A DNA stretch of 32,000 nucleotides from Trichodesmium erythraeum IMS101 (GCF_000014265.1 NC_008312.1:1020001-1052000); one strand, 5' to 3'. Shown: positions 1 to 26,559, numbered from the stretch's first letter. Numbers and translations are program-made. Notes: generated by a model from the sequence alone, not told the origin.

Positions 1-558
1 TATCCAGTCAAATCTGGTAATGTTCAAATTGGCATTTATAATTTGCAGGATTTAGATATAAATTCTCTGAGAAAGCAAGTTGTATTAGTACCTCAAGATG
101 CTCATTTTTGGAGTCGTTCAATTATTGAAAATTTTTATTTAGCAGCTCCGGGAGTAACATTTGAAAAAATTGTTAAAGCTTGTCAAATTTCTGGTGCTGA
201 TGAATTTATTAGTTGTTTGCCTAATAAATATCAAACAGTTTTAGGAGAATTTGGAGCCAATATTTCTGGGGGTCAAAGGCAGCGTTTGGCAATAGCTAGA
301 GGTATTGTTAATGAGCCACCTGTATTAATTTTGGATGAGTCAACTTCTGGTTTAGATCCGATAGCTGAGTCTGAAGTTTTGGAGAGATTATTGTCTTATC
401 GTCGGGGTAAAACTACTATTTTTATTAGTCATAGACCTAGGGTAATTAGTAGGGCTGATTGGATTATTTTATTAAATCGTGGCCAGCTAGAATTGCAAGG
501 TTCTCCGGCATCTTTACGGGCAAAACATGGTAATCATTTAGATTTTTTGAATCCTTAA
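1..558 (+). CDS. ABC transporter ATP-binding domain, C-terminal part (5' end lies outside the window); HlyB/bacteriocin-exporter-like
   Basis: Frame 1 is open from nt 1 (YPVKSGNVQIGIYNLQDLD...). The TTG at 43 in the ORF track is internal. The translation shows the ABC signature ISGGQRQRLAIARG, Walker B VLILDESTSGLD and H-loop FISHR. Stop TAA at 556-558. Confidence 0.9.
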   Translation, partial: YPVKSGNVQIGIYNLQDLDINSLRKQVVLVPQDAHFWSRSIIENFYLAAPGVTFEKIVKACQISGADEFISCLPNKYQTVLGEFGANISGGQRQRLAIARGIVNEPPVLILDESTSGLDPIAESEVLERLLSYRRGKTTIFISHRPRVISRADWIILLNRGQLELQGSPASLRAKHGNHLDFLNP

Positions 559-820: not shown

Positions 821-3800
821 ATGACTATAGCTAATCCTATTAAAAAGGTTAACCAACTACTTCGGGAAAGAAAATTTGATGATGCTTTTAAAGAGTGCCA
901 AAAATCTATAGAAGTAAACCCTAATTTTTCCTGGAATTATTACTATTTAGGAAAAATATTAGCTGCACAAAATAAATGGCAAGAAGCACTTATCCAATAT
1001 GAAGAGGCAGTTAAAATCAATCCTAACTCTGCAACTTTTTACTATAGCTTGGCTAAAACTTTAAGACATCAAGGTCAATTAGATGAAGCAATTAAATATC
1101 TAAAAATAGCTATTTCTCTAAAAAATAATGTGATTATTTATCAACAAACTCTAGCTGAAGTTTATGAAGTTAAGTTTGATTTTGTGGGCGCATTTAAAAT
1201 TTGGCAAGAAATTATTGCTATTAATTATAATCATCCTGTAGCAACAAAAAAAATTCATTGGTTACGAACAGATATTGTTAGAGATTTTGTCGAGAATGGG
1301 GATAAGTTAAATAAGGAAGGAAAAATCAAGGAGGCTGTTAATTTTTACCAGCAAGCATTAACTATAAATTCCCAACAGCCTATGCCTATTTATCGTAATT
1401 TTGGGAATAATTTAATTACTTTAGGTAAATTTGAGGAAGCAGAAACGGTATTTAAGCAATTAAAAGAAATGTATCCAGAGCTAACAGATGGTTATGAGGG
1501 TTATGCAAGGTTAACTCATAGTTTAGGGAATTGGGAGTTGGCATTAAAGCGTTGGGAAAATGCTATAGAAAAGTTTCCAGAAAATATCGGTTTTCAAACT
1601 CAGAAAGGCAATATGTTGATAAATTTGTCTCGGTTTGATGAGGCAGAATCAGTTTTTCAAAGTTTAAAAGAAAAGTTTCCTCATCAACCTCAAGGTTACG
1701 ATGGTTATGCCAGATTAACTCATAGTTTTGCTGATTGGAACTTGGCTTTGAAGCGTTGGGAAAATGCTATAGAAAAGTTTCCAGAACATATCGGTTTTCA
1801 AACTCAGAAAGGCAATATATTAATAAATTTATCTCGGTTTGATGAAGCAGAATCAGTTTTTCAAAGGTTAATAGAAAAGTTTCCTCATCAACCTCAAGGT
1901 TACGATGGTTATGCCAAATTAACTTATCGTTTTGCTGATTGGAACTTGGCTTTGAAGCGTTGGGAAAATGCCATAGAAAAGTTTCCAGAAAATATCGGTT
2001 TTCAAACTCAGAAAGGCAATATGTTGATAAATTTGTCTCGGTTTGATGAAGCAGAATCAGTTTTTCAAAGGTTAATAGAAAAGTTTCCTCATCAACCTCA
2101 AGGTTACGATGGTTATGCCAGATTAACTCATAGTTTTGCTGATTGGAACTTGGCTTTGAAGCGTTGGGAAAATGCTATAGAAAAGTTTCCAGAAAATATC
2201 GGTTTTCAAACTCAGAAAGGCAATATGTTGATAAATTTGTCTCGGTTTGATGAAGCAGAATCAGTTTTTCAAAGGTTAATAGAAAAGTTTCCTCATCAAC
2301 CTCAAGGTTACGATGGTTATGCCAGATTAACTCATAGTTTTGCTGATTGGAACTTGGCTTTGAAGCGTTGGGAAAATGCTATAGAAAAGTTTCCAGAAAA
2401 TATCGGTTTTCAAACTCAGAAAGGCAATATGTTGATAAATTTGTCTCGGTTTGATGAAGCAGAATCAGTTTTTCAAAGGTTAATAGAAAAGTTTCCTCAT
2501 CAACCTCAAGGTTACGATGGTTATGCCAGATTAACTCATAGTTTTGCTGATTGGAACTTGGCTTTGAAGCGTTGGGAAAATGCTATAGAAAAGTTTCCAG
2601 AACATATCGGTTTTCAAACTCAGAAAGGCAATATATTAATAAATTTATCTCGGTTTGATGAAGCAGAATCAGTTTTTCAAAGGTTAATAGAAAAGTTTCC
2701 TCATCAACCTCAAGGTTACGATGGTTATGCCAGATTAACTCATCGTTTTGCTGATTGGAACTTGGCTTTGAAGCGTTGGGAAAATGCCATAGAAAAGTTT
2801 CCAGAAAATATCGGTTTTCAAACTCAGAAAGGCAATATGTTGATAAATTTGTCTCGGTTTGATGAAGCAGAATCAGTTTTTCAAAGGTTAATAGAAAAGT
2901 TTCCTCATCAACCTCAAGGTTACGATGGTTATGCCAGATTAACTCATAGTTTTGCTGATTGGAACTTGGCTTTGAAGCGTTGGGAAAATGCTATAGAAAA
3001 GTTTCCAGAAAATATCGGTTTTCAAACTCAGAAAGGCAATATGTTGATAAATTTGTCTCGGTTTGATGAAGCAGAATCAGTTTTTCAAAGGTTAATAGAA
3101 AAGTTTCCTCATCAACCTCAAGGTTACGATGGTTATGCCAGATTAACTCATAGTTTTGCTGATTGGAACTTGGCTTTGAAGCGTTGGGAAAATGCTATAG
3201 AAAAGTTTCCAGAAAATATCGGTTTTCAAACTCAGAAAGGCAATATGTTGATAAATTTGTCTCGGTTTGATGAAGCAGAATCAGTTTTTCAAAGGTTAAT
3301 AGAAAAGTTTCCTCATCAACCTCAAGGTTACGATGGTTATGCCAGATTAACTCATAGTTTTGCTGATTGGAACTTGGCTTTGAAGCGTTGGGAAAATGCT
3401 ATAGAAAAGTTTCCAGAACATATCGGTTTTCAAACTCAGAAAGGCAATATGTTGATAAATTTGTCTCGGTTTGATGAAGCAGAATCAGTTTTTCAAAGGT
3501 TAATAGAAAAGTTTCCTCATCAACCTCAAGGTTACGATGGTTATGCCAGATTAACTCATAGTTTTGCTGATTGGAACTTGGCTTTGAAGCGTTGGGAAAA
3601 TGCTATAGAAAAGTTTCCAGAAAATATCGGTTTTCAAACTCAGAAAGGCAATATGTTGATAAATTTGTCTCGGTTTGATGAAGCAGAATCAGTTTTTCAA
3701 AGGTTAATAGAAAAGTTTCCTCATCAACCTCAAGGTTACGATGGTTATGCCAGATTAACTCATAGTTTTGCTGATTGGAACTTGGCTTTGAAGCGTTGGG

Positions 3801-6800
3801 AAAATGCTATAGAAAAGTTTCCAGAACATATCGGTTTTCAAACTCAGAAAGGCAATATATTAATAAATTTATCTCGGTTTGATGAAGCAGAATCAGTTTT
3901 TCAAAGGTTAATAGAAAAGTTTCCTCATCAACCTCAAGGTTACGATGGTTATGCCAAATTAACTTATCGTTTTGCTGATTGGAACTTGGCTTTGAAGCGT
4001 TGGGAAAATGCCATAGAAAAGTTTCCAGAAAATATCGGTTTTCAAACTCAGAAAGGCAATATGTTGATAAATTTGTCTCGGTTTGATGAAGCAGAATCAG
4101 TTTTTCAAAGGTTAATAGAAAAGTTTCCTCATCAACCTCAAGGTTACGATGGTTATGCCAGATTAACTCATAGTTTTGCTGATTGGAACTTGGCTTTGAA
4201 GCGTTGGGAAAATGCTATAGAAAAGTTTCCAGAAAATATCGGTTTTCAAACTCAGAAAGGCAATATGTTGATAAATTTGTCTCGGTTTGATGAAGCAGAA
4301 TCAGTTTTTCAAAGGTTAATAGAAAAGTTTCCTCATCAACCTCAAGGTTACGATGGTTATGCCAGATTAACTCATAGTTTTGCTGATTGGAACTTGGCTT
4401 TGAAGCGTTGGGAAAATGCTATAGAAAAGTTTCCAGAAAATATCGGTTTTCAAACTCAGAAAGGCAATATGTTGATAAATTTGTCTCGGTTTGATGAAGC
4501 AGAATCAGTTTTTCAAAGGTTAATAGAAAAGTTTCCTCATCAACCTCAAGGTTACGATGGTTATGCCAGATTAACTCATAGTTTTGCAGATTGGAACTTG
4601 GCTTTGAAGCGTTGGGAAAATGCTATAGAAAAGTTTCCAGAACATATCGGTTTTCAAACTCAGAAAGGCAATATGTTGATAAATTTGTCTCGGTTTGATG
4701 AGGCAGAATCAGTTTTTCAAAGGTTAATAGAAAAGTTTCCTCATCAACCTCAAGGTTACGAGGGTTATGCCAGATTAGCTAATCATTTGGGGAATTGGGA
4801 ATTAGCTTTGAAGCGATGGGAAAATGCGATTAATCATTTGCCCCACCATTTTCATTTTTATGTACAGAAAGGGAATGTTTTAATTACTTTATTTAGGTAT
4901 CAAGAAGCAGAAACTTTGTTTGAGGAACTTATCTCAAAATATCCTCATCAACATCATGGTTATGATGGTTTAGCCAGAGTATTAATGCACGCCCAAAAAT
5001 GGGAATTAGCCTTAACTTGTTGGCAAACTGCTATGGATAAATTTCCAAATAATCTTGTGTTTTTAGTTGGTAAAGCTAATGCTTATATAGAACTACATAA
5101 GTTTGATTCAGCTCAGGATTTAGCAGATAGAATATTTCGCCAATATCCTAACTATTATCAACAAAAATATGGTCTCCAAAAAAATATCATATTGCGTCGT
5201 TATGCGCTTGAAAAAAGTATCGCTTCTCTAAGCAAAGTCGAAGATTATTTCAGATATTTGTTGTCTGAATCAGAGGTTTTTCCTATTGCTTATTCTTGTG
5301 ATCAAATACTTTTAGAATCAATAAATAATCTTACTCAAACTATGCACCATTTTATTACCCTTGGCATTATTGGCATAGCCGTGAAAAGATTATTAGATGA
5401 TTACTTTTTAGAGGTATCACCTGGAGAGATATTAGCTTGTACATTTAAAAAGTTAATTACTCAAAAATTAGGGAATGAAAATTTTGACTTACAGCAAGCA
5501 GAAATATTATGTACTGAAGGAAATTTTCGGGCTGCTATTGATATTTACCTTAATCTAGGAGATGAGATAATAGAAGAATTTATTCCTGACTATCCAGAAC
5601 ATATTGATAGACTATTTTATGGAATAATAGAGCATAATATAACAGCAGATTTACCAGAAAAATATGGCAGTTTATCATTAGCAAAGGAAACCCTAGAAGC
5701 AGACTTAATAAATGCTGATTTTGATGGCGATAGTATTAGTATTTACTCTCAACTGGGTTATTTATTAGTACATCTAGGTGAAACTGAGAAGGGTTTAGCG
5801 TATTTAAACAAGGGTGTAGAAATTTCTATTTATAGTCAGGATGCCTATATCAAATTGGGCTACGCTTTATTAAAAATAGGAAAAAAAGATTCGGCATTTG
5901 CTAATTATAAACAGGCGATTAAATTAAATTTTGCTTTGGCTTTATTAAGTGCGACTTTAATAGAATGGGGAATATCTAAGTCTCACCAATTAATCAATAG
6001 TGGTTGTCAAAAGTTTGAAGTCTATCAACAACTTTCAAATTTGTTGATTCAAAAAGGTTTGTCAAAAGAAGCTTTGGAAGTTGTTCATAAAGTTCAGAAT
6101 AAATTTGGTGATGGACACTATGGCAAGAAAAATTTAATCCCTATTTTAGTTGCTCAAGGAAATAAGCAGGAAGCACTAAAATACTATCAACAAGTATTAA
6201 TAGAAAATCCTAAATCTGCTGATAAAAATTTGAGTGTTTTGAGAAGTTGTTCCTCTTTGGAAAAGTTTGAAAATCAAACTCTGCTACAAGCAGTAATGTG
6301 CGATAGATTTAAAATTGCTTATGCTTATATTCCTAAATGTGCTTGCACTACAATAAAAACTGTCATCAAGTTCCTATCATCTGAGCTTAAGAAGGATAAC
6401 TATAGAATAAATAAAAAAATTAGTACTCTTAAGTATCAAGATCCAATGGAGATACATCGATTCCAAAAAATTTACTTGATAAATATGGGAAATATAACAA
6501 CTAATTATTTTAAATTTGTAGTAGTGAGAGAGCCAATTAAGCGTTTTTTATCTGCTTTTTCTAATAAAATATTATACTCTAAAGAATCATTAGAAAGAAC
6601 TAAATTAACCGCCATTCAATATCTATCAATGGCTCAGTTAGGAGTTAATCCCGAAATAAATTCGATGATTGAAAACTTAGAATTATATTCAGAAATGTCT
6701 GATAATTGGCAACTTCATATCAAACCGCAGCACACTTTTATGGGCAATCAAATAAAGGGATTCGATCGTATATTTCAAGTAGAGCGTTTAGGAGAATTAG

Positions 6801-7000
6801 GGAAAAAATTATCAGAAATAACTGGGTTTGAAATTAACTTACCCAGACTTAATACTGGAGGTAGAAAAATATCATTAGCAGAGTTGTCAGAGAAGTCTAT
6901 AAAAAAATTAATTGACTTTTATTCCAGAGATTATGAGTTACTAAAAGATTATTATTCTCCAGAGAAAATTTGGGATGAATATCAAGCATTAAAAAGATAA
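821..7000 (+). CDS. Giant TPR-repeat protein with a C-terminal sulfotransferase (family 2-like) domain
   Basis: Single long ORF. The first in-frame start is GTG at 782, but ATG at 821 (MTIANPIKK...) is more likely. The N-terminal and central parts are 34-aa TPR-like repeats (A..W/F...IEKFP periodicity). The region encoded by about 6290-6997 carries sulfotransferase-type motifs: YIPKCACTT (5'-PSB-like loop) and VVREPIKRFLSAFSNK (3'-PB-like). Confidence 0.85.
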   Translation: MTIANPIKKVNQLLRERKFDDAFKECQKSIEVNPNFSWNYYYLGKILAAQNKWQEALIQYEEAVKINPNSATFYYSLAKTLRHQGQLDEAIKYLKIAISLKNNVIIYQQTLAEVYEVKFDFVGAFKIWQEIIAINYNHPVATKKIHWLRTDIVRDFVENGDKLNKEGKIKEAVNFYQQALTINSQQPMPIYRNFGNNLITLGKFEEAETVFKQLKEMYPELTDGYEGYARLTHSLGNWELALKRWENAIEKFPENIGFQTQKGNMLINLSRFDEAESVFQSLKEKFPHQPQGYDGYARLTHSFADWNLALKRWENAIEKFPEHIGFQTQKGNILINLSRFDEAESVFQRLIEKFPHQPQGYDGYAKLTYRFADWNLALKRWENAIEKFPENIGFQTQKGNMLINLSRFDEAESVFQRLIEKFPHQPQGYDGYARLTHSFADWNLALKRWENAIEKFPENIGFQTQKGNMLINLSRFDEAESVFQRLIEKFPHQPQGYDGYARLTHSFADWNLALKRWENAIEKFPENIGFQTQKGNMLINLSRFDEAESVFQRLIEKFPHQPQGYDGYARLTHSFADWNLALKRWENAIEKFPEHIGFQTQKGNILINLSRFDEAESVFQRLIEKFPHQPQGYDGYARLTHRFADWNLALKRWENAIEKFPENIGFQTQKGNMLINLSRFDEAESVFQRLIEKFPHQPQGYDGYARLTHSFADWNLALKRWENAIEKFPENIGFQTQKGNMLINLSRFDEAESVFQRLIEKFPHQPQGYDGYARLTHSFADWNLALKRWENAIEKFPENIGFQTQKGNMLINLSRFDEAESVFQRLIEKFPHQPQGYDGYARLTHSFADWNLALKRWENAIEKFPEHIGFQTQKGNMLINLSRFDEAESVFQRLIEKFPHQPQGYDGYARLTHSFADWNLALKRWENAIEKFPENIGFQTQKGNMLINLSRFDEAESVFQRLIEKFPHQPQGYDGYARLTHSFADWNLALKRWENAIEKFPEHIGFQTQKGNILINLSRFDEAESVFQRLIEKFPHQPQGYDGYAKLTYRFADWNLALKRWENAIEKFPENIGFQTQKGNMLINLSRFDEAESVFQRLIEKFPHQPQGYDGYARLTHSFADWNLALKRWENAIEKFPENIGFQTQKGNMLINLSRFDEAESVFQRLIEKFPHQPQGYDGYARLTHSFADWNLALKRWENAIEKFPENIGFQTQKGNMLINLSRFDEAESVFQRLIEKFPHQPQGYDGYARLTHSFADWNLALKRWENAIEKFPEHIGFQTQKGNMLINLSRFDEAESVFQRLIEKFPHQPQGYEGYARLANHLGNWELALKRWENAINHLPHHFHFYVQKGNVLITLFRYQEAETLFEELISKYPHQHHGYDGLARVLMHAQKWELALTCWQTAMDKFPNNLVFLVGKANAYIELHKFDSAQDLADRIFRQYPNYYQQKYGLQKNIILRRYALEKSIASLSKVEDYFRYLLSESEVFPIAYSCDQILLESINNLTQTMHHFITLGIIGIAVKRLLDDYFLEVSPGEILACTFKKLITQKLGNENFDLQQAEILCTEGNFRAAIDIYLNLGDEIIEEFIPDYPEHIDRLFYGIIEHNITADLPEKYGSLSLAKETLEADLINADFDGDSISIYSQLGYLLVHLGETEKGLAYLNKGVEISIYSQDAYIKLGYALLKIGKKDSAFANYKQAIKLNFALALLSATLIEWGISKSHQLINSGCQKFEVYQQLSNLLIQKGLSKEALEVVHKVQNKFGDGHYGKKNLIPILVAQGNKQEALKYYQQVLIENPKSADKNLSVLRSCSSLEKFENQTLLQAVMCDRFKIAYAYIPKCACTTIKTVIKFLSSELKKDNYRINKKISTLKYQDPMEIHRFQKIYLINMGNITTNYFKFVVVREPIKRFLSAFSNKILYSKESLERTKLTAIQYLSMAQLGVNPEINSMIENLELYSEMSDNWQLHIKPQHTFMGNQIKGFDRIFQVERLGELGKKLSEITGFEINLPRLNTGGRKISLAELSEKSIKKLIDFYSRDYELLKDYYSPEKIWDEYQALKR
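1532..4795 (+). repeat. 16 near-identical in-frame tandem units of 204 bp (68 aa, two TPR motifs each) inside the giant ORF
   Basis: The unit WNLALKRWENAIEKFPENIGFQTQKGNMLINLSRFDEAESVFQRLIEKFPHQPQGYDGYARLTHSFAD recurs every 204 nt (for example tgctatagaaaag at 1561 and 1765). Units differ by 0-5 nt. More diverged units continue on both flanks (about 1380-1531 and 4796-5200). Confidence 0.95.
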
Positions 7001-7703: not shown

Positions 7704-9122
7704 TCAATTCTCACTTGTTTTAATACCCTCACTAAAATCTGAGAAAAGTTGCTTTTGCTTTTCAAGAGATATATTTTCATCACTTCCTAATCTATCTAAA
7801 ATATCTAATATTTCCCGTTCAAATGTCACATTAGCACGATTAGTTTTACCCCCTATATAAAGTCGCTCACTCTCTTGAAAAGCCCAAATTTGAGAGTGAG
7901 AAACATAACTCATTAATACACTCAACATTAATAAACCAAAACCTAAATAAACAATTGGAATACCAGGGTCAGCTTTAATTTGTAAGCCTGTACTACCTAT
8001 AATTTTGTCAATAAATAGAGTGACACCACTCACCTCTATAAACATTCCTTCCCGCACACTAGCAACTAACTTACCAGAAGTATCATAAACTAATACATTT
8101 CCTTGTAAATCTTTGGCAAGTAAAGATACACCTTCACTTAAATCTGGTTTTATAGGAACCCAAGTACCCCAAATTTTACCCCCTCCTTCTGTATTTAATT
8201 GTGCCATTGGTAACCGAAAAACAGGACTTTTATTAACCCTAACTTTAACTGCAGCGATCGCCCAATCTGCTTGATACATTGTCACCCCATGATAACGCAT
8301 AGGTTGATTAACAAATATGGTTTTCCTATCTACTTCTTCTCCACTTTTATCTAATATTGATAAGTCAGAATAAAACTGGTCAATTCCTCCAGAAGGAGTA
8401 TAATCAATCCAGAAACGATTGACTCGAACTGACCAATTTTTAGGAATTTGTGACTTAGCAAAAATTCCCGCATCAATAATATTTTTTACTTGAAATGTTT
8501 CCCCACTCGGCACTATTTCTTGACCAAGAAATCCAGTCATTGAGCCGATTATTGAACCTGCTAAAATTATTAGCATACTAGCGTGAACTATTATGGGACC
8601 AACTTTGCCAATAATTCCTTTTCTTCCATAAAGTTTATCTCCTTCTTTAGAAGTTTTATAGCCCCTTTTCTGTAATATTTCTTCTAAAGAATCTAGAGAA
8701 GCTGTTTCTATTTCTGCACTTAATGCTAAGTTTTTAAATTGTTGTTTTTTATTATAAAATTTCCAGCGGTTCGCAGATTTTAGGGCTGGTAATTGTCTAG
8801 TAAATGTGCAGGCAGTTAAACTAGCTCCGAATAATATTAATATTGATAAAAACCACCAAGTCCGGTAAACATGATCTAATTCTAATAATAAAATTACTTT
8901 CCAGGTTAAAAAACCAAATAATGCTGGTTTTTCTGGATAGTTTTCTTGATAAAAAGCTATTGACTCACCTTGTTCTATAACTGTGCCTGAAATACTACAG
9001 ATAGCTATTATTAAAAGTAGAGCGATCGCCAAGCGTAAATCAGCTAATAATGGCAATATTTCTCGTTTAAATATTCTTAAAGGATTTATCAGAGAATTTT
9101 TATCTGAATCTTCAACATCCAT
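7704..9122 (-). CDS. ccs1: Cytochrome c biogenesis protein Ccs1/CcsB (ResB family, System II)
   Basis: The translation has the typical N-terminus [28 protein letters not shown], further TM segments and a large soluble loop ([33 protein letters not shown]). The ORF opens at TTG 9146. The first ATG is at 9122 and is used here as the start. Confidence 0.85.
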
Positions 9123-9385
9123 TGATTTAATTACTATTAGTTTCAATAATTTTTATTGTAGTCAATAAGTTAGGTATAACTCAACATTAAAAAAAATCGC
9201 CCGGTGGTTTAACTAAAATTTTTTATAAATTAGCACTTTATTCCTAACAACTATATCTATACTCCTTAGGCTTATTTCTACTTGCTTACTTTATGAGAGA
9301 AGTATTAATATTCCTAATATAACTTATATTAAATCCATTAATTAGGTATAAAAAAACTGATAACTAAATGCTAATAGCTGCAAAC

Positions 9386-10117
9386 TTACACTGGTATAAT
9401 CCTAGATAAAAGTGAAAATACACCAAAACCAACTAATAAAATTCCACTAGCAGGTGTAATCCAACTAGACCATTTTCTAATTTCCAAAAATTTTTTAATA
9501 TTAGCTGTAAAAGCTCCTGCTAATATCAAAGGTGTGACATAACCCATAGCATAAAATAGCAAGAAAAATCCACCTAAAATTAAATCTCCAGTAGTCGAAA
9601 CCCAAGCTAATAATGTCGCTAATACAGGAGTGCTACAAGGAGATGCTATTAAACCAAATGTTAAACCTAATAAATATGAACGTACTCCTTTAGGTAAATC
9701 TTGAGATATCCATCCCATACTGTCAAAAGATGGCATTGGTAATGGTAATGCTTCTAGTAAGTTAAGACCCATAAAAATAGCTATTATACTAACAACAATT
9801 GGTAATCCTACACCTACTTGACCATAGACTTTTCCCAGCAATGATGCTATAATACCTAACCCAGCTAAAGTTGTAGCTAATCCTAGAGAAAACCAAGCAG
9901 ATTGAACAGTAGCTTGAATACGACTTTTAGCTTCGTATCCGCCAATATAACCAATAGTTATTGGTAGCATGGAAAGCATGCAAGGAGTAAGACTGGTCAG
10001 TAAACCAGCTACAAAGATAGTTACTAAACTTACCCAACTTAGGTGTGTTAGTTGAGTTTTTACTAAACTATTTGCATATTGGGCGGTTTCGTAAAAGAAA
10101 GTTAGGATAGTTTCCAT
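9386..10117 (-). CDS. ccdA: Cytochrome c-type biogenesis thiol:disulfide transmembrane protein CcdA (DsbD-like)
   Basis: 243-aa polytopic membrane protein with the two conserved Cys-containing segments (LTSLTPCMLSMLPITIGYIGG and LIASPCSTPVLATLLAW). ATG start at 10117. Same strand as ccs1 and immediately upstream of it. Confidence 0.85.
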   Translation of the reverse strand: METILTFFYETAQYANSLVKTQLTHLSWVSLVTIFVAGLLTSLTPCMLSMLPITIGYIGGYEAKSRIQATVQSAWFSLGLATTLAGLGIIASLLGKVYGQVGVGLPIVVSIIAIFMGLNLLEALPLPMPSFDSMGWISQDLPKGVRSYLLGLTFGLIASPCSTPVLATLLAWVSTTGDLILGGFFLLFYAMGYVTPLILAGAFTANIKKFLEIRKWSSWITPASGILLVGFGVFSLLSRIIPV

Positions 10118-10631: not shown

Positions 10632-10886
10632 ATGGCCACTGTAAAAACTGCAATATCACTACAAGAGTATCTGTTTGAACAAGCTGAAGCAATAGCAGCA
10701 GAAATGAAAATTTCTAGAAGTCGTTTAATTGCCATTGCTCTAGAAGAGTTTATCCGTAGGCATCAAAATCGAATATTGCTAGAAAAAATAAATGCTGCTT
10801 ATGGAGATATTTCAGATACTGAAACATTAGCATCAAGAAGTACTATTCTTGAAAATCATAAAAGTATAATAGAGGACGAGTGTTAA
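10632..10886 (+). CDS. Ribbon-helix-helix (CopG/MetJ-like) type II antitoxin
   Basis: MATVKTAISLQEYLFEQAEAIAAEMKISRSRLIAIALEEFIRRHQ shows the beta-strand/helix-helix pattern of RHH antitoxins. Start set at ATG 10632, because the GTG at 10596 in the ORF track lies inside the predicted promoter. It overlaps the toxin gene by 7 nt. Confidence 0.7.
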   Translation: MATVKTAISLQEYLFEQAEAIAAEMKISRSRLIAIALEEFIRRHQNRILLEKINAAYGDISDTETLASRSTILENHKSIIEDEC

Positions 10887-11239
10887 TTAATCAGGGCGAT
10901 ATATTCTGGATAGAGTTAGGAGAACCATCCGGTTCTAAGACTAGCTATAGACATCCTCATGTTGTCATCCAAAACAATGTTTTTAATTTTAGTCTAATTA
11001 ATACTGTTGTTGTTTGTAGTTTAGGTTCTAATTTGAAACTTGCTGCAGTTCCTGGTAACATTGTGTTGTCACTAGGTGAGGCTAATTTACCAGATCAAAG
11101 AGTTGTAAATATATCCCAAATATTTACAGTTGAAAAAGCTAAACTAATAGATAAAATAGGTACTCTTTCACCAGAGAGAATAGAACAGATATTAAATGGA
11201 GTAGAACTTTTACTCAAACCAACAGATATGGAATCATAA
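10880..11239 (+). CDS. PemK/MazF-family type II toxin (endoribonuclease)
   Basis: GDIFWIELGEPSGSK...RHPHVVIQNNVFN...VVVCSLGSN...ISQIFTVEKAKLIDKIGTLSPERIEQI matches the MazF/PemK fold signature. GTG start overlaps the antitoxin stop. Confidence 0.75.
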   Translation: MLINQGDIFWIELGEPSGSKTSYRHPHVVIQNNVFNFSLINTVVVCSLGSNLKLAAVPGNIVLSLGEANLPDQRVVNISQIFTVEKAKLIDKIGTLSPERIEQILNGVELLLKPTDMES

Positions 11240-11501: not shown

Positions 11502-12680
11502 TTATAAACTTACCTTAATGCCATATTCTATATCAGTATAAAATGACTGAAGTAACTTTGTATTTTCCTGCCAGTTAAGATGAGTTTTGGCAAAATTAAC
11601 TGCTCCCTCACTTAACTTTTTATAATTAGAATCAACATTCAACAATTTTTTCACAGAATCAACAATATTAACTGCATCAACCACAGGTAAAACTAAAGCA
11701 TCTTTGTGATTTTCCATGACCAAACCAATATTAGTAGCAGGCAAAATTACAGGTTTACCCATTGCTAAAAATTCCGGCAATTTACAAGGGAAACGATAAT
11801 CATTAAATTTATCAGGTCTACCTGGTTGAATTAACACACTTGCTAAAGCTAAAATTTCTGGCATTAAACTCCGGTCTACATATCCTAATTCAATAGCATG
11901 TTGTCTTGCCCAACTATCATCATCTCCCAAAAAATTACAGAAATCTCTACCAGTTCTAATTAAAACTGCAGGTTGACCTTCTCGGTTTAATATTGCCACT
12001 GCTAAATATAAACTTCTCACCTCATAGGTATTAGCAGCATGAACATTTCCAGTGTAAGAAAAAACCAGACTATTGTCAGGGACACCAAATTTTTTAGCTA
12101 TTTCTGGATTAGAATTTCTCGGATAAAAATGCTCAGTTTCTACACCAGGCCATAAAATTAAACTCGGCACATTATTGGGCACAAATTTTTTTAATTTTTC
12201 AATAATAACTGTCACTCCATCCGCACTTGCGAGAAATTCCTGATATTTTTGAGGATGAGAAAGATTATCAGGAATTTCCAGACTTCCATTAGCAGTAATA
12301 ATTTCTTCAAAAGGTTTATTTAAGTATTTTTCTAAGACATGTTCCTCATTATCTTCCAAGTGAATAACTAACTTAAAGTCATAAATTTTCCGGAGTTTAT
12401 AGCAGTAATTTCTAGTAACTTCCCTAGGAGTCCAAACATGAATAATATCCGGTCCTTGTTGATTTTTAAAGCATTCATTTAAGCGATAAAATTCTCCATA
12501 TTCTGTCACTTGATACAAATTTGCTAAATGTTTTCCGACCATTGAAACAGTCTGTTTATTTTTAGGTACAGCTACCACACAATCAAAACCCAATTTAACC
12601 AAATTATTAGCAAAATGATGCACATGCAGCGCACTATTAGAATGGAAATCTTCGTACAGAACAAATAAAATATTTTTCAT
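11502..12680 (-). CDS. Glycosyltransferase (GT-B fold, family 1/4-like)
   Basis: 392-aa ORF with ATG start. The C-terminal half resembles GT1/GT4 donor-binding regions (FSYTGNVHAAN, LIQPGRPDKFNDYRFPCKLPEFLAMGKPVILP). Acceptor specificity is unknown. Confidence 0.7.
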   Translation of the reverse strand: MKNILFVLYEDFHSNSALHVHHFANNLVKLGFDCVVAVPKNKQTVSMVGKHLANLYQVTEYGEFYRLNECFKNQQGPDIIHVWTPREVTRNYCYKLRKIYDFKLVIHLEDNEEHVLEKYLNKPFEEIITANGSLEIPDNLSHPQKYQEFLASADGVTVIIEKLKKFVPNNVPSLILWPGVETEHFYPRNSNPEIAKKFGVPDNSLVFSYTGNVHAANTYEVRSLYLAVAILNREGQPAVLIRTGRDFCNFLGDDDSWARQHAIELGYVDRSLMPEILALASVLIQPGRPDKFNDYRFPCKLPEFLAMGKPVILPATNIGLVMENHKDALVLPVVDAVNIVDSVKKLLNVDSNYKKLSEGAVNFAKTHLNWQENTKLLQSFYTDIEYGIKVSL

Positions 12681-12924
12681 TAAAACTATATCTGGGAAAG
12701 TTAGATTTTTATTAACAGTATTTTTAAGTGATTTTATTGATAGTAATTCCTACACTTTATGAGCTACAATAATAACAATGTATAAACTTGTCATGAATGT
12801 TTTTTTGGTAATTTGTAACAGATCTTAGGTAATAGATGGATTAAATATTTATCCTTTCTATTCATAATATTTTTTTTTAAGAATAGCTAGAACCATTAAT
12901 AGTAAATATTAATAAAGGGAAAAT

Positions 12925-13714
12925 TTCGGGATCGGCAAGAGGTCAATATAAGGAATAATAAACTCTTCAATAACTGCTCTGGCTATCTCTTAATAATGAA
13001 TTTTGGCATTATCCATTATCACACAAGGTTTTATCCATAGTAATAGGAATACCTCTTAAACTATAAAAGCTTTCCTAAAGAATGAAATCTACTTCAAAAT
13101 TACTTCATACACTGCTACATAATTATTAACTTTATGCCAAAACTTTTTTTCTTAGATTTAAGCCACTCAATGCCGAAATATTTTGCCCTTGCCCGTTGAG
13201 TTTTTCTCCTCTAGCCCTTGTTCTTTTTTATCCCCTAGATCATGGAAAAAAGTGCCTTACTAGATTCATTCCTAATTGATCTAGAACAGAAAAACTAAAT
13301 TATCTAATTCTTATCCTCTGACTATTCCCTAAAAATCTGCCCTTTTATATGGCATTTAATACTTTCTTTTAACGTATAGTTCAATTTTTTACCTCTTATT
13401 ACCATTATACTTTTTCTCTCTTTAACTTCTGTGGCAGCCTCCATTAAATTACATAATTATTCATTAGTTAAATGATTATTTTTATCCATTATTTCTATTA
13501 AGATTAATAATTCTTAACTATTTAATTTAGAAGGAATACTTCCTCCTCGAGTTAAAGGTCTAATATCTCCAGTTTCTTGATATTTTTTGATTAATTTTTG
13601 AATAAAACTTTTACTAACTCCAAACCTTTGAGCTAGTTTTCTTATGGAAATTTTTTCTTTTTCCCAAATTTCGATAATTTTTTTTCTTAAGTCTATAGAA
13701 TAAGGTTTCATCAA
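12925..13714 (-). pseudogene. IS630/Tc1-mariner-family transposase relic (intact HTH ORF followed by a decayed DDE part)
   Basis: The 13514-13714 ORF (MKPYSIDLRKKIIEIWEKEKISIRKLAQRFGVSKSFIQKLIKKYQETGDIRP) is a typical IS630 N-terminal HTH. Downstream on the minus strand, broken frames still read LTNE.LCNLMEAATEVK... and DNAKIHY (13013-12993). The whole relic is about 300 bp shorter than an intact element. I could not identify terminal inverted repeats. Confidence 0.6.
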
Positions 13715-14057
13715 TTTTATTTTAAATTTATGGCCATAAATACTATACCTCTTAGTCTACCATTAGACTCTGGGAATTACTATATCTAGTTAAATCCAGT
13801 TTGGCATTTACCACAAACAAGTAAACTGCAATCCATATATATTAAGCTTTTCTCAACTAAAATATATGATCTATAGTAATTGGATTTGGTATGATAGAGA
13901 GCGTTTATTATAGAACTGATATGGCATATTTTTCAAGTCTTATTAGCTTCTTTATTACAAGAAAATCAACTAAAACGTTGCCTTAAAAGCTTAAAGCTTT
14001 GAGGCTTTAGATAAAATTTTTCGGTCAAATAAAATACATAATTATGGAGAAAAATTA

Positions 14058-15113
14058 ATGGATCTAGTCAAACTCCAAAAGTCATTGGACAACATCTCGT
14101 TTGGTATCTTGTTTGCCACAATGCTTATTTATTGGTTGGGTGCTGCTTTTCCTCGTATCCCCTATCTCTCAATTTTAGGTTCTACAGGAATGGCGATCGC
14201 TAATCTCTGTATTGCCACATTACTCGGAGCTCGCTGGTTAGAAGCTAGTTATTTCCCTATTAGCAATTTGTACGAATCTTTATTTTTCTTGACATGGGGA
14301 ATTACCACTATTCATCTTATAGCTGAAAATATGAGTGGCGCTCGCCTGGTTGGAGTATTTACCTCTCCAATTGCTATGGGTATTTCTGCTTTTGCTGCCC
14401 TAACTTTACCCTCCAATATGCAGATATCTGAGCCCTTGGTGCCTGCTCTAAAATCTAATTGGTTGATGATGCACGTTAGTGTCATGATGTTGAGTTATGC
14501 AACCCTTATAGTAGGGGCATTATTGGCTATCGCTTTTCTTATAATAACCAGTGGCCAAAAAGTTGAACTTAGTGGTAGTTCTTTTGGCACTCGTTCTTCT
14601 AGAAATAATCATTTTGTGAAGTATCAAAAAAATTGGCAACTACAAAAAGAAAGACCATTACTGAAGGAAATCAAAAACAACTATAAACCTTTTCCCCAAT
14701 CTACAAAAAATGACCATAGTCAAACTTCAGTCTTGGAAATAACCGAGGTTACTCAAAAAGTTGATCCAGAAATAATACTTTCACCAGAACGTTTAAATAT
14801 TGCTCAAATCCTAGATAACATTAGCTATCGTATCATTGGTTTAGGATTCCCACTACTAACTATTGGAATTATTGCTGGAGCAGTTTGGGCAAATGAAGCT
14901 TGGGGTTCTTATTGGAGTTGGGACCCAAAAGAAACTTGGGCTTTAATTACTTGGTTAGTGTTTGCAGCTTATCTTCATGCCCGTATTACTAAAGGATGGC
15001 AAGGGCGAAAACCTGCTATTTTGGCCGCTACTGGATTTGCTGTAGTCTGGGTATGTTATTTAGGAGTAAATCTTTTAGGTAAAGGTTTACATTCTTATGG
15101 TTGGTTTTTGTGA
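14058..15113 (+). CDS. ccsA: Cytochrome c biogenesis protein CcsA (System II heme-handling/synthase subunit)
   Basis: Polytopic protein with the WWD-type tryptophan-rich motif [19 protein letters not shown] and conserved His residues. GGAG lies 9 nt upstream of ATG 14058. Confidence 0.9.
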
Positions 15114-25154: not shown

Positions 25155-26559
25155 AATCTAAAACTTCCTCAATAAAGTAATGTACTCCTACGCCAACTTT
25201 ACAATATGGGGTTACCTTCTCGTTTTCTAGTCCCGGTATGCCGTCGAACTCCACGAGGTTTTAAGAATAGTGTAATTATTTTCTTCATGTTAATAAAAAA
25301 TAGGGGGAATGGCCCCATACTTCCAGAATAGCTTTTCTAAAATATTTTTCATATTTAAAGTTGGATCCGCTAAATTCTTAAAATTATAATCTCCATAGCT
25401 TGAGGCCGAAGAGTATTTCAAATTATTGTATCGTACTTATTCCGGCTTTGTCTTATTGATTTGTCAAAAGGATTTTGTCAATAACTTTTTGCGTTTTTTC
25501 CCCTCCTTGGGACAGCTATCTGGAATCATTGATCTCTGAAAACTTTGTGGGGAGAAAGCCCAGACCGTAGAGTGGGGGAACCAAAAATATGGGAGCTCAA
25601 CAAAACTACTTAAGTCTTCAAAAAAATATATTTTATCAATGTATTTTATCAATGCACTTTTTTCTGGAAAAAGTATATTTAATACTTATGCATAAACTAT
25701 CTATTTTGTCAAGTATAATCTTAAGAAAGATACTTATAAAAGAGAACTTTTTCTGCAGGTTAGTGGAGAGATCAAAGCCTTTAATAATAGAGTTGTTGGG
25801 AATTAAGCAAAAAAAATGGCTCAAATCCAAAAAAAGTTCAGGCGTAAGGGTGCTTTGCAGTATTTTAATCATGAAAAGCTTACTATATAAGGTTTTCATG
25901 ATTTTAAAATTTCCCACACCTAAAAACTCTAATATTTTGAGTGACAACTACATTAATTCTCTCAAATTTGACACCCTCCCGACACTACTTTAGGGGCATA
26001 CCTGGAGGGGTGACAGGTAAGACTAAAAAACTCACATAACATAGTTTACAGCTTTTATACATCTCTGATAATTGAGCCCTTTTTAAGACCAATTGGCCAT
26101 CAATTCCTCTGCTTCTCCTGCAAACATGAACAAGAAATTTAACCAAGATTGACCTCTATTTCCTGTATAAAAATGGCTATGTCGTCGATATTTTCTTCCT
26201 TTTTCAGTTGGACAGTTTATATAATTTGCTACTCCTTTGTATAGAACGACAACAGCTCTCAAGTTTTATATATTTTGGCATTTGATTAGCCAGAGTTTCT
26301 CAACGTATCCATCGGTGTTCTTGAATTATAGTAATCAAAACTTTCAACATTAACCAAACATTGAATTTTAATTGACTTTTTAAATGTTTATGGTACAAGA
26401 AAGGTAATTTATTCATTTTTATTAAATTAGCCTTATTGACAATATCTAAGTTCATCTTTTTTGTTCATGTTTTGGTTAATCCCTAATACTGAAGGCTTTT
26501 TGACTTTTTTTTCACCCCCCAGAGGGCATAGTAAATATTCCCTATAATGACTAATACTG

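What the first reader, a model, noticed from the sequence alone, without database searches (positions are those of the whole stretch)
1532..4795. 3.3 kb of almost perfectly identical 204-bp coding repeats (16 double-TPR units)
Sixteen consecutive in-frame units differ by only a few nucleotides, whereas the flanking TPR units of the same gene are strongly diverged. Identity this high at the DNA level implies very recent expansion or ongoing concerted evolution (unequal recombination or gene conversion). It predicts copy-number polymorphism between strains or cells, so the length of the scaffold protein could vary. It is also an assembly hazard, because short reads cannot fix the copy number.
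Basis: seen in the sequence. Interest (0 to 1): 0.65.

Follow-up and report, generated by a model that had tools for sequence, protein, structure and literature searches.

The report
Recently amplified TPR array, sulfotransferase gene
A Trichodesmium gene for a sulfate-adding enzyme carries sixteen nearly identical 204-base coding blocks, a recent and apparently strain-variable amplification that lengthens the enzyme's helical arm and breaks short-read assemblies; this is a real example of a familiar kind of repeat instability.

Summary
TRF finds a 204-bp array at 1490-4827 (16.4 copies, 97% matches, no indels), in frame inside one gene (821-7000, +). Fifteen units (1694-4753) differ pairwise at 0-8 of 204 bases, and seven are identical. 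The first unit differs from the consensus at 15 bases. The flanking units are 45-70% identical to the core.

The gene encodes a soluble 2059-aa protein: about 45 TPR motifs, then a PF03567 sulfotransferase domain. The organism is Trichodesmium erythraeum.

Exact repeats of 879 bp (ten units apart) and 709 bp (four units apart) show block-wise amplification. The number of core units is 0-5 in related genera and 7 in a relative whose flanking DNA is 98.5% identical, against 16 here. Edge units group by position across species; core units group by genome. That is the pattern of concerted evolution.

Among nine same-species contigs, six stop inside the array and one replaces it with an N gap. The assembly hazard is therefore real, and the count of 16 has no independent check.

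Selection on the units is purifying (pN/pS about 0.3).

The gene sits directly downstream of a conserved cassette: tyrosine-rich double-glycine-leader peptides and a peptidase-containing ABC exporter. Peptide sulfation is therefore possible. Against that, the closest homologues of the sulfotransferase domain lie in polysaccharide clusters.

Verdict: a new member of a known kind, of moderate interest.

The parts
43..558 (+). 3' end (last 171 codons) of the upstream gene, a 736-aa peptidase-containing ABC exporter (C39 peptidase + ABC_membrane + ABC_tran). Its 5' part and three double-glycine-leader Tyr-rich peptide genes lie just outside the window.
   Evidence: ABC_tran hit. NCBIfam HlyB/bacteriocin-exporter models match. 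The full gene and its Pfam domains can be read in L012 and L013; L013 is 100% identical to W1-1579.
821..7000 (+). TPR-sulfotransferase gene, 2059 aa from ATG 821 (the mechanical ORF starts at GTG 782). No signal peptide or transmembrane segment.
   Evidence: ORF list and translation. The orthologues' N-termini align with the ATG 821 start. Maximum Kyte-Doolittle 19-residue score is 1.42.
821..1285 (+). N-terminal TPR region, unique sequence (155 aa).
   Evidence: Pfam TPR hits at aa 52-116. It is 76% identical to L002 and 88% identical between L002 and P0001.
1286..1489 (+). U0, an old position-specific leader unit, 45-47% identical to the core units.
   Evidence: It clusters with the U0 units of other genera.
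1490..1693 (+). U1, the first core unit, 93% identical to the consensus (15 mismatches). It keeps the older 'SLK' variant also seen in MAG_R01 units.
1694..4753 (+). U2-U16: fifteen near-identical 204-bp units (68 aa, two TPR motifs each), with 0-8 pairwise mismatches. The variant pattern along the array is a b c c | a b' c c | a' c | a b c c | a''.
1669..2547 (+). 879-bp tract exactly identical to 3709-4587 (shift 2040 bp, ten units). It marks a multi-unit block duplication.
3709..4587 (+). Second copy of the 879-bp exact duplicate.
4754..5161 (+). U17 and U18, old position-specific closing units (69% and 54% identical to the core). U17 is identical to that of MAG_R01; U18 differs at 4 positions.
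5162..6289 (+). Linker region with further TPR motifs between the array and the catalytic domain.
   Evidence: Pfam TPR_8, TPR_2 and TPR_1 hits. PDB sequence hits to consensus-TPR proteins and to the OGT TPR domain.
6290..6946 (+). Sulfotransfer_2 (PF03567) domain. It contains a 5'-PSB-like motif IPKCACTTIK (6332-6358) and a 3'-PB-like motif REPIKRFLSAFSNK (6527-6568).
   Evidence: Pfam E 1.1e-30, 108 bits against a cut-off of 22, profile positions 3-250 of 252. Invariant R, P, S and N residues in alignment A3. AF2 model pLDDT 73.6; the top PDB fold hits are sulfotransferases but weak.
6345..6490 (+). Divergent patch inside the sulfotransferase domain. It does not align by BLASTN with MAG_R01 or with a second T. 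erythraeum population whose flanks are 98.5-99.6% identical.
   Evidence: It overlaps most of the low-pLDDT residues 60-89 of the model (about 6383-6472).

Best explanation
The array is a real, in-frame amplification of a 204-bp unit that encodes two TPR motifs. It lies in the middle of a Trichodesmium erythraeum gene for a soluble 2059-aa protein, which consists of a long TPR solenoid followed by a C-terminal PF03567 sulfotransferase domain.

Shown:
- The gene family has a fixed frame of old, position-specific units (U0 at the start, U17 and U18 at the end). Between them sits a variable number of 'core' units.
- In this lineage the core has 16 units, 15 of them 96-100% identical.
- Exact duplicated tracts exist at offsets of one, four and ten units.
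- Relatives have 0-7 core units.

Inferred mechanism: unequal homologous exchange, or slipped-strand replication, between misaligned units. Exact tracts of 400-880 bp are ample substrate for this. Gene conversion then mixes a shared pool of variants among the units. Each unit is 3 x 68 nt and is a self-contained pair of helical hairpins. Gain or loss of whole units therefore keeps both the reading frame and the solenoid fold, so length changes are tolerated. The units themselves stay under purifying selection (pN/pS about 0.3).

Inferred consequence: the TPR arm in front of the catalytic domain varies by tens of motifs between strains (32 TPRs in the core here, 14 in MAG_R01).

What the arm holds is unresolved. 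I narrowly favour the Tyr-rich double-glycine-leader peptides encoded beside the neighbouring peptidase-ABC exporter (about 0.45). The alternative is a glycan acceptor (about 0.4).
For: Array and reading frame.

Block duplications: an 879-bp exact repeat at a shift of 2040 bp, 709 bp at a shift of 816, and 426 bp at a shift of 204.

Domain content: TPR families at E down to 1e-132, and PF03567 at 108 bits.

Organism: ResB is 100% identical to a protein cluster whose longest contig is 7,750,108 bp. The same figure is listed for a protein named T. erythraeum IMS101.

Core-unit counts: 0 in L007; 1 in L001 and L006; 1-2 in L002; 3 in L005; 5 in P0001; 7 in MAG_R01; 16 in the window.

Unit tree: U0, U17 and U18 group by position, and core units group by genome.

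Divergence: within-array pS is 0.033 in the window and 0.11 in MAG_R01. Between the two strains, the adjacent single-copy gene segment has pS 0.029. pN/pS is 0.29-0.33.

Variant sites are shared in mosaic combinations between units of the two strains.

Independent assemblies reproduce both edges of the array at 99.98-100% identity and then break or leave a gap.

Related arrays are also internally similar. Adjacent units are 99% identical in L003 and 94% in L004, and both contigs start inside the array. Two adjacent units of the same-genome paralogue P0005 are 94% identical at the protein level.

Cassette: 3-6 peptides with a ...ATINGG leader and Tyr-rich cores (26-37% Tyr in the three T. erythraeum peptides), followed by the peptidase-ABC exporter and then this gene, in L012, L013, L002, L006 and L007. 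Downstream synteny with ResB is not kept in L006 and L007.
Against: - The count of 16 rests on this one assembly. No other assembly crosses a near-identical array, and no reads are available.
- MAG_R01 may be collapsed or chimeric, so '7 versus 16' is not proof of polymorphism between strains.
- Nothing here shows that array length changes function.

Against the peptide acceptor:
- The domain is PF03567 and gives no hit to other sulfotransferase families at E <= 1.
- Its nearest stand-alone homologues lie in polysaccharide synthesis and export clusters.
- The spacer between the exporter gene and this gene is 0.26-1.35 kb.
- The orthologues in L006 and L007 carry stops or frameshifts next to an intact exporter gene and intact peptide ORFs.
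- The GT61 paralogue that shares this TPR scaffold sits in a sugar-nucleotide and glycosyltransferase cluster.
Confidence: 0.8

Rival explanations
1. The array exists, but its length and unit order in this assembly are wrong. A 3.3-kb stretch with exact repeats of up to 879 bp was mis-joined, over-expanded or collapsed during assembly or finishing.
For: Every other same-species assembly fails here: six contigs end in the array and one scaffold has a 100-N gap. The only assembly that crosses the array (MAG_R01) has 7 units. No reads are available.
Against: The array keeps the reading frame over 3264 bp with no indels. Its few variants form a coherent higher-order pattern (a b c c ...), not noise. 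Both edges are reproduced at 99.98-100% identity by independent assemblies. Collapse, the usual artefact, gives too few copies rather than too many.
Confidence: 0.2
2. The long array is old and is kept homogeneous by continual gene conversion because selection favours identical units. The short arrays in relatives would then be deletions or assembly collapses, and this array would not be a recent expansion.
For: Core units cluster by genome in every lineage. Variants are shuffled in mosaic fashion between units. Purifying selection acts on the units. Several relatives' contigs (L003, L004) break inside arrays with 94-99% identical units, so their true lengths are unknown.
Against: Complete, uninterrupted orthologous genes with 0-5 core units exist in several genera, and their units are distinguishable (60-87% identity), so they were unlikely to collapse. 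MAG_R01 units are 3-4 times more diverged from each other than the window's units. Exact multi-unit blocks of 709 and 879 bp are the signature of duplication, not of short conversion tracts.
Confidence: 0.15
3. The array is a hypervariable recognition module like the highly internally conserved TPR, ANK and WD repeats of fungal and bacterial NLRs. Repeat reshuffling plus diversifying selection at binding-surface positions would generate new specificities.
For: It shows the same formal features: near-identical solenoid repeats, differences in repeat number, and exchange with a paralogue (the MAG_R01 N-terminus is of the GT61-paralogue type). This is the regime described in PMC4986451 and bioRxiv 10.1101/2020.01.06.895854. 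By my own mapping, three of the five non-synonymous variant sites fall at helix-A positions 9, 12 and 13 of the first TPR. From memory, those positions face the concave side.
Against: No NB-ARC or NACHT domain is present; the partner domain is an enzyme. pN/pS is about 0.3 within and between arrays, and the 15 units have only 10 variable sites, half of them synonymous.
Confidence: 0.07
4. Rival for function: the enzyme sulfates a polysaccharide, such as a sulfated exopolysaccharide or sheath glycan. The TPR arm would then be a spacer or docking arm in a glycan-assembly complex, so array length could set where or how far along the chain sulfate is added. This would be analogous to the coiled-coil rulers of WbdD and WbbB.
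For: The domain is PF03567. Stand-alone homologues lie among Poly_export, ABC2_membrane, GT2, GT4 and PAPS-related genes. The GT61 paralogue with the same TPR scaffold sits in a sugar-nucleotide and glycosyltransferase cluster. The second sulfotransferase locus (L001, L005) abuts a PF00953 glycosyltransferase-family-4 gene. The ruler principle is documented for chain-terminating enzymes (PMC11231755).
Against: No glycan genes adjoin this gene in the window apart from one GT4-like gene 4.5 kb away on the other strand. The conserved neighbours are the peptide genes and the peptide exporter. The protein has no membrane anchor or polymerase-docking region. No TPR ruler is described in the paper read.
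Confidence: 0.4

Closest known systems
Highly internally conserved TPR/ANK/WD repeats of fungal (and some bacterial) NLR proteins (Dyrka et al. 2014, PMC4986451; bioRxiv 10.1101/2020.01.06.895854)
   Same: Solenoid repeats whose units are 85% or more identical within one gene, repeat-number polymorphism, concerted evolution within and between paralogues, and occurrence in filamentous organisms.
   Different: In those proteins the repeats sit on NB-ARC or NACHT receptors, most TPR units are 42 aa, and binding-face positions are under positive selection. Here a 68-aa double unit sits on a sulfotransferase, identity is higher (94-100% at the protein level over 1020 aa), and pN/pS is about 0.3.
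Intragenic tandem repeats (VNTRs) in bacterial genes, e.g. the Legionella pneumophila survey (PMC2639597)
   Same: In-frame repeat units whose length is a multiple of three, with TPR/Sel1 proteins among the carriers.
   Different: The Legionella TPR arrays are 102-108-bp units, 3-9 copies, 58-75% identical. This array is 204 bp x 16 at 96-100% identity, and the protein has no signal peptide or transmembrane segment, so it is probably cytoplasmic.
O-GlcNAc transferase (OGT): an N-terminal TPR superhelix fused to a C-terminal transferase domain
   Same: The architecture is a long N-terminal TPR solenoid feeding a C-terminal group-transfer domain. The TPR parts give direct sequence hits to OGT TPR structures (1w3b, 7yea). 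From memory, the OGT TPR lumen binds protein substrates.
   Different: The catalytic domain is a PF03567 sulfotransferase, not GT41. The OGT TPR number is fixed and its repeats are diverged. Substrate binding by this array is untested.
RaxX / RaxST / RaxB of Xanthomonas (sulfated RiPP; bioRxiv 10.1101/442517)
   Same: The gene-neighbourhood logic is the same: a precursor peptide with a Gly-Gly leader, a cytoplasmic sulfotransferase and a peptidase-containing ABC exporter in one cluster. The Trichodesmium leaders have hydrophobic residues at -4, -12 and -15 and end in GG.
   Different: RaxST is described as a tyrosylprotein sulfotransferase. This domain matches only PF03567. RaxX has one sulfated Tyr, while these cores have 14-17 Tyr. 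No adaptor (RaxA/HlyD-type) gene was seen in the flanks read. The peptide genes lie outside the window. No chemistry is known.
Coiled-coil molecular rulers of glycan-terminating enzymes (WbdD, WbbB; PMC11231755, PMC3482155)
   Same: An elongated, length-defined structural element adjoins a chain-modifying enzyme, and its length sets a product property.
   Different: Those rulers are coiled coils with a membrane or polymerase docking end. Here the element is a TPR solenoid with no detectable anchor. This is an analogy only.

Membership tests
Tetratricopeptide repeat (TPR) proteins | Tandem 34-aa helix-turn-helix motifs that match TPR profiles | tested here: met
   PF14559 (E 9.8e-132, 19 stretches of the 68-position model), plus PF13428, PF13432, PF07719 and PF00515, all far above their cut-offs. 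Each 68-aa unit maps by eye to two motifs with A/G at position 8, A at 20 and P at 32.
Sulfotransfer_2 (PF03567) | Match to the family profile above the curated cut-off | tested here: met
   108.1 bits against a cut-off of 22, E 1.1e-30, profile positions 3-250 of 252.
Sulfotransfer_2 (PF03567) | PAPS-binding motifs (5'-PSB PKxxxTT.K-like and 3'-PB RxPxxRxxS-like) intact | tested here: met
   IPKCACTTIK and VVVREPIKRFLSAFSNK are present. R108, P110, S116 and N120 are invariant across 11 homologues. That these motifs are the PAPS-binding sites is from my own knowledge of sulfotransferases.
Sulfotransfer_2 (PF03567) | PAPS-dependent sulfotransferase activity and identity of the acceptor | not testable with these tools
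   The AF2 model (pLDDT 73.6) gives sulfotransferases as its top five PDB fold hits, but only at E 0.07-0.4.
Tyrosylprotein sulfotransferase type (TPST / RaxST) | Sequence membership in the TPST-type sulfotransferase family | tested here: not met
   A Pfam scan of the domain at E <= 1 returns only PF03567 among sulfotransferase families.
RiPP-like cluster with a peptidase-containing ABC exporter | Precursor peptides with a double-glycine leader next to a C39-peptidase ABC transporter | tested here: met
   Three peptides in T. erythraeum (L012, L013), six in L002, five in L006 and at least one in L007, all with ...(A/G)TINGG leaders and all upstream of a 736-aa C39 + ABC_membrane + ABC_tran gene. 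They lie outside the window; only the exporter's last 171 codons are inside.
RiPP-like cluster with a peptidase-containing ABC exporter | The neighbouring enzyme modifies the core peptide | not testable with these tools
   Only conserved adjacency in five loci supports it.
Variable-number coding tandem repeat under concerted evolution | Units more similar within a genome than between orthologous positions, with edge units escaping homogenisation | tested here: met
   Neighbour-joining tree of units from eight loci.
Variable-number coding tandem repeat under concerted evolution | Copy number differs between strains of one species | tested here: inconclusive
   16 units in the window against 7 in MAG_R01, with flanks 98.45% identical. 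MAG_R01 is a MAG, and all other same-species assemblies break in the array.
NLR-type highly internally conserved repeat receptors | NB-ARC or NACHT nucleotide-binding domain next to the repeats | tested here: not met
   No such Pfam hit among the families returned for the whole protein or for its C-terminal parts.
NLR-type highly internally conserved repeat receptors | Diversifying selection on repeat positions | tested here: not met
   pN/pS is 0.29-0.33 within and between arrays.

The most novel reading that the evidence does not exclude
The TPR-sulfotransferase is the tailoring enzyme of a previously undescribed class of secreted peptides in Trichodesmium and its relatives. It would O-sulfate many tyrosines of the double-glycine-leader, 26-37% Tyr cores in the cytoplasm, before the neighbouring peptidase-ABC exporter cleaves and secretes them. 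The long TPR solenoid would thread or hold the extended peptide, as the OGT TPR does. That would make this the first PF03567-type peptide sulfotransferase. Strain-specific array length (7 versus 16 units) would then tune how many sites are sulfated, and with it the charge and adhesive behaviour of peptides that could matter for colony formation or particle binding.
Probability: 0.2. Interest if true: 0.75.

Novelty: new member of a known kind. Interest (0 to 1): 0.45.

Why it matters
For genomics. This locus is a documented trap. Seven of the nine retrieved public T. erythraeum contigs break or leave a gap at it. Protein length and domain counts for this gene in MAGs are therefore unreliable, and read depth or long reads are needed.

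For evolution. The locus shows block-wise amplification and homogenisation of a structural repeat inside an enzyme gene, with old edge units that escape homogenisation. There are also signs of exchange with a paralogue that carries a different catalytic domain (GT61). The shared TPR array may therefore act as a recombination joint for swapping enzyme modules.

For Trichodesmium biology. The gene lies directly downstream of a conserved cassette of extraordinarily Tyr-rich secreted peptides. If these are the sulfate acceptors, the locus would define a new peptide modification system in a globally important nitrogen fixer. It would also offer a natural length series for asking what a TPR arm does for a transferase.

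Tried and rejected
Look-ups that found nothing:
- Exact-sequence look-ups of the window protein with either start, and of P0001, P0005 and P0006.
- The first genome scan with the single C-terminal protein. The repeat with an alignment worked.
- The metagenome scan gave only three short contigs, none from the same species.

Structure and RNA searches:
- A PDB sequence search of the C-terminal 612 aa hit almost only TPR proteins and no sulfotransferase.
- The fold search of the AF2 model ranked sulfotransferases first, but not significantly.
- tRNA and Rfam scans found nothing.
- Promoter and terminator scans were at or below shuffle expectation. The two terminator-like hairpins in U1 and U16 only reflect a shared GAG variant.

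Literature:
- No paper linked a Trichodesmium TPR protein with a sulfotransferase or with Tyr-rich peptides.
- Wang et al. 2011 catalogued four bacteriocin-type clusters in IMS101. I could not tell from the text and supplements held whether this cassette is one of them.

Ideas rejected:
- Surface-antigen-type repeat variation, because there is no signal peptide or transmembrane segment.
- An NLR-like receptor, because there is no NOD domain and pN/pS is 0.3.
- Frameshift-type phase variation, because the unit is 3 x 68 nt and has no indels.
- A hidden gene on the opposite strand, because no ORF of 100 aa or more is there.
- A correlation between core-unit number and number of peptide genes: 16 units with 3 peptides, 1-2 with 6, and 1 with 5.

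Full report

Yes. Tandem Repeats Finder reports a single large array in the window, at 1490-4827: period 204, 16.4 copies, 97% matches, no indels, score 6298. It lies wholly inside the only long ORF of the region (782/821-7000, + strand) and in its frame. No ORF of 100 aa or more lies on the opposite strand.

I cut the array in the register of the protein unit (GY...PQ, 68 aa) and number the units U0-U18 along the gene.
- U1 (1490-1693) differs from the consensus at 15 of 204 positions.
- The next fifteen units (U2-U16, 1694-4753) differ from the consensus at 0-4 positions and from each other at 0-8. Seven of them are identical.
- These fifteen units have only ten variable sites, five synonymous and five non-synonymous.
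- Outside the core, U0 (1286) has 112 mismatches, U17 (4754) 63 and U18 (4958) 93. Units further out show about 140 of 204 mismatches to the consensus.

'Sixteen almost identical units' is more exactly fifteen near-identical units plus one at 93%.

**2. What is the gene?**

From ATG 821, the start that matches the orthologues' N-termini, the product is 2059 aa.
- Pfam gives overwhelming TPR matches. The 68-position model TPR_19 matches in 19 stretches, which fits U0-U18.
- A C-terminal Sulfotransfer_2 domain (PF03567) occupies nt 6290-6946. It scores 108 bits against a cut-off of 22 and matches no other sulfotransferase family at E <= 1.
- The motifs IPKCACTTIK and REPIKRFLSAFSNK are intact and conserved in an alignment of eleven homologues. 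From my own knowledge these are the PAPS 5'- and 3'-phosphate binding sites.
- An AlphaFold model of the domain (pLDDT 73.6) has sulfotransferases as its five best PDB fold matches, but only at E 0.07-0.4.
- The protein has no signal peptide or hydrophobic segment (maximum KD-19 score 1.42), so it is probably cytoplasmic.

**3. Which organism?**

Several public contigs are 99.98-100% identical to the window. The window is therefore T. erythraeum, most probably the IMS101 chromosome. This last step is inference.

**4. Anatomy and history of the array**

The few variants form a higher-order pattern: a b c c | a b' c c | a' c | a b c c | a''. The longest exact self-matches are 879 bp at a shift of ten units (1669-2547 = 3709-4587), 709 bp at a shift of four units and 426 bp at a shift of one unit. 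The array therefore grew by duplicating blocks of several units as well as single units.

I retrieved orthologues from Trichodesmium sp., Okeania and Microcoleaceae MAGs, plus an ENA protein, P0001.
- All share the same frame: a leader unit (U0-type), a penultimate unit (U17-type) and a last unit (U18-type).
- Between these lies a variable number of core units: 0 in L007, 1 in L001 and L006, 1-2 in L002, 3 in L005 and 5 in P0001.
- In a neighbour-joining tree of unit DNA, the U0, U17 and U18 units group by position across genera, whereas core units group by genome. This is the classic picture of concerted evolution with edge units that escape homogenisation.

**5. Same-species comparison**

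I used ResB as a handle to retrieve T. erythraeum-type contigs.

Trichodesmium sp. MAG_R01 crosses the array.
- It is 98.45% identical to the window over 12.6 kb of flank.
- Its gene is intact (1436 aa) with seven core units that differ pairwise at 5-14 positions.
- Its U17 is identical to the window's, and its U18 differs at four positions.

Synonymous divergence among the window's core units (pS 0.033) is about the same as that between the two strains in the adjacent single-copy part of the gene (0.029). It is 3-4 times lower than among MAG_R01's units (0.11). pN/pS is about 0.3 in every comparison. The same variant bases occur in different combinations in units of both strains, as expected if units exchange sequence.

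The window's array thus looks like a lineage-specific amplification of one unit type. It happened on the timescale of strain divergence and under purifying selection.

Caveat: MAG_R01 is a MAG whose assembly method I could not check, so its array could be collapsed or chimeric.

**6. Assembly hazard**

Of the nine other same-species places retrieved:
- Six contigs end inside or at the 3' edge of the array (at W4269, 4403, 4466, 4581, 4581 and 4732).
- One scaffold joins W1-1579 to W4525-19122 through 100 N.
- Two end earlier in the gene.

Independent data therefore confirm both edges of the array and show that it cannot be resolved by those assemblies. Nothing confirms the number 16. Among the relatives, the contigs L003 and L004 also start inside arrays whose adjacent units are 99% and 94% identical.

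**7. Mechanism**

Shown: block duplications, whole-unit differences between relatives, and homogenisation within genomes.

Inferred: unequal homologous exchange or replication slippage between misaligned units, plus gene conversion. From established knowledge, exact tracts of hundreds of base pairs are efficient substrates for both. From memory, Trichodesmium has also been reported to be polyploid, which would multiply the templates available.

A unit is 204 = 3 x 68 nt and encodes two complete TPR hairpins. Insertions and deletions of whole units therefore preserve both the reading frame and the solenoid. The physical result is a TPR arm whose core is 32 motifs long here and 14 in MAG_R01.

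**8. What might the arm serve?**

Two lines of evidence point in different directions.

(a) Peptides.
- The gene upstream, of which the window holds only the last 171 codons (43-558), is a 736-aa peptidase-containing ABC exporter (C39 + ABC_membrane + ABC_tran).
- Three small ORFs precede it on the same strand. They have a double-glycine leader (...ELFSDISTENSATINGG|H...) and cores of 46-54 aa with 26-37% tyrosine.
- The same cassette of peptides, exporter and TPR-sulfotransferase occurs in L002 (six peptides), L006 (five) and L007 (at least one). Downstream synteny with ResB is lost in L006 and L007.
- The logic resembles RaxX/RaxST/RaxB, where a cytoplasmic sulfotransferase sulfates a Gly-Gly-leader peptide before a peptidase-ABC exporter processes it (bioRxiv 10.1101/442517).
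- TPR solenoids fused to transferases are known to bind protein substrates in OGT. The array gives direct sequence hits to the OGT TPR domain.

(b) Glycans.
- The domain is PF03567.
- Its closest stand-alone homologues (29-36% identity) lie in typical polysaccharide clusters with Poly_export, ABC2_membrane, GT2, GT4 and PAPS-related genes.
- A paralogue family with the same N-terminus and core units carries a GT61 domain and sits among sugar-nucleotide and glycosyltransferase genes.
- A second sulfotransferase locus (L001, L005) abuts a PF00953 glycosyltransferase-family-4 gene.
- The spacer to the exporter is 0.26-1.35 kb.
- The orthologues in L006 and L007 are interrupted, while the exporter gene and the peptide ORFs beside them are intact.

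I rate the peptide acceptor at about 0.45 and the glycan acceptor at about 0.4. Neither can be decided with these tools.

**9. Comparison with known systems and novelty**

The phenomenon is a coding tandem repeat under concerted evolution with copy-number change, and this kind is well known.
- The nearest described parallel is the 'highly internally conserved' TPR, ANK and WD repeats of fungal and some bacterial NLRs (PMC4986451; bioRxiv 10.1101/2020.01.06.895854). This protein is not an NLR, because it has no NOD domain, and it shows no diversifying selection.
- Ordinary bacterial TPR arrays are far less uniform: 58-75% unit identity in Legionella (PMC2639597).

The array is therefore an extreme member of a known kind, in a published genome, and I found no description of it.

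The more original element lies just outside the finding: the conserved cassette of Tyr-rich peptides and exporter next to a TPR-sulfotransferase.

**10. Verdict**

- Novelty: new member of a known kind. Interest: 0.45.
- The most novel reading still open is that this is a peptide poly-sulfating enzyme whose arm length varies between strains. I give it a probability of about 0.2 and an interest of 0.75 if true.

Noticed in passing
Just upstream of window position 1; read in L013:18098-19118 (- strand) and L012:19073-20095 (- strand). Also L002:1623-5085, L006:1926-4304 and L007:607-855.: Families of 3-6 small ORFs (62-81 aa) with a double-glycine leader (...ELFSDISTE(E/N)SATINGG) and Tyr-, Arg-, Ser- and Gly-rich cores. 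The three T. erythraeum cores are 26-37% Tyr. The cores have a recurrent R-[SP]-[VI]-[SR]-Y motif and a C-terminal GCY or YCD. They sit upstream of the peptidase-ABC exporter whose 3' end is W43-558. They match no Pfam or NCBIfam family; the only hit is the ComC leader at E 0.02.
   Followed up: partly
L012 (MAG_R01) gene, aa 45 to about 200, compared with window 950-1420: The MAG_R01 orthologue has the window's first 44 residues. It then switches to an N-terminal sequence resembling the GT61 paralogue (P0005 type) before rejoining at the core units. L001 and L005 likewise combine a P0005-type N-terminus (69% identity) with the sulfotransferase C-terminus. This suggests recombination between paralogues through the shared TPR units.
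   Followed up: partly
window 6345-6490: A patch of about 145 bp inside the sulfotransferase domain, between the two PAPS-motif regions, does not align by BLASTN with MAG_R01 or with a second T. erythraeum population whose flanks are 98.5-99.6% identical. The window version carries a longer, Lys- and Asn-rich segment and overlaps most of the low-confidence loop of the model.
   Followed up: partly
L001:~11296, L006:~11116, L005:8759-9574 and ~10664, L007:7965-8105: Several related copies of the gene carry in-frame stops or frameshifts. These are the positional orthologues L006 and L007 and the paralogue-locus copies L001 and L005. NCBI annotates their sulfotransferase parts as separate short proteins (P0121, P0124). 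They may be pseudogenes or MAG errors.
   Followed up: no
window 4269-6345 versus L014, L016, L017, L018: A second T. erythraeum-type population is 99.5-99.6% identical to the window over W6490-19122 but only 97-98.6% identical in the 3' half of this gene. Diversity is locally elevated there.
   Followed up: no
window 16276-18555 (+): A 759-aa ORF matches TIGR04096, 'DNA phosphorothioation-associated putative methyltransferase' (951 bits). No dnd genes were looked for nearby.
   Followed up: no
window 10880-11239 (+) and the small ORF just upstream: The precomputed Pfam hits for the identical gene in L012 and L013 call this a PemK-family toxin (119 aa). It is preceded by an overlapping 84-aa ORF, so this is probably a toxin-antitoxin pair, sitting between ccdA and a GT4-like gene.
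   Followed up: no
window 7704-10117 (-) and 14058-15113 (+): Cytochrome c biogenesis system II genes (ResB/CcsB, CcdA, CcsA) are split by an insertion-like stretch that holds the toxin pair, a GT4-like gene (11502-12680) and a 1.4-kb stretch (12681-14057) with no ORF of 100 aa or more. The 13001-14000 window has low GC (0.279) and strongly negative GC skew (-0.27).
   Followed up: no
window 25625-25654: A small 13-bp tandem repeat (2.3 copies, AATGTATTTTATC) lies at the start of overlapping ORFs on both strands (25589-25993 + and 25636-25947 -).
   Followed up: no
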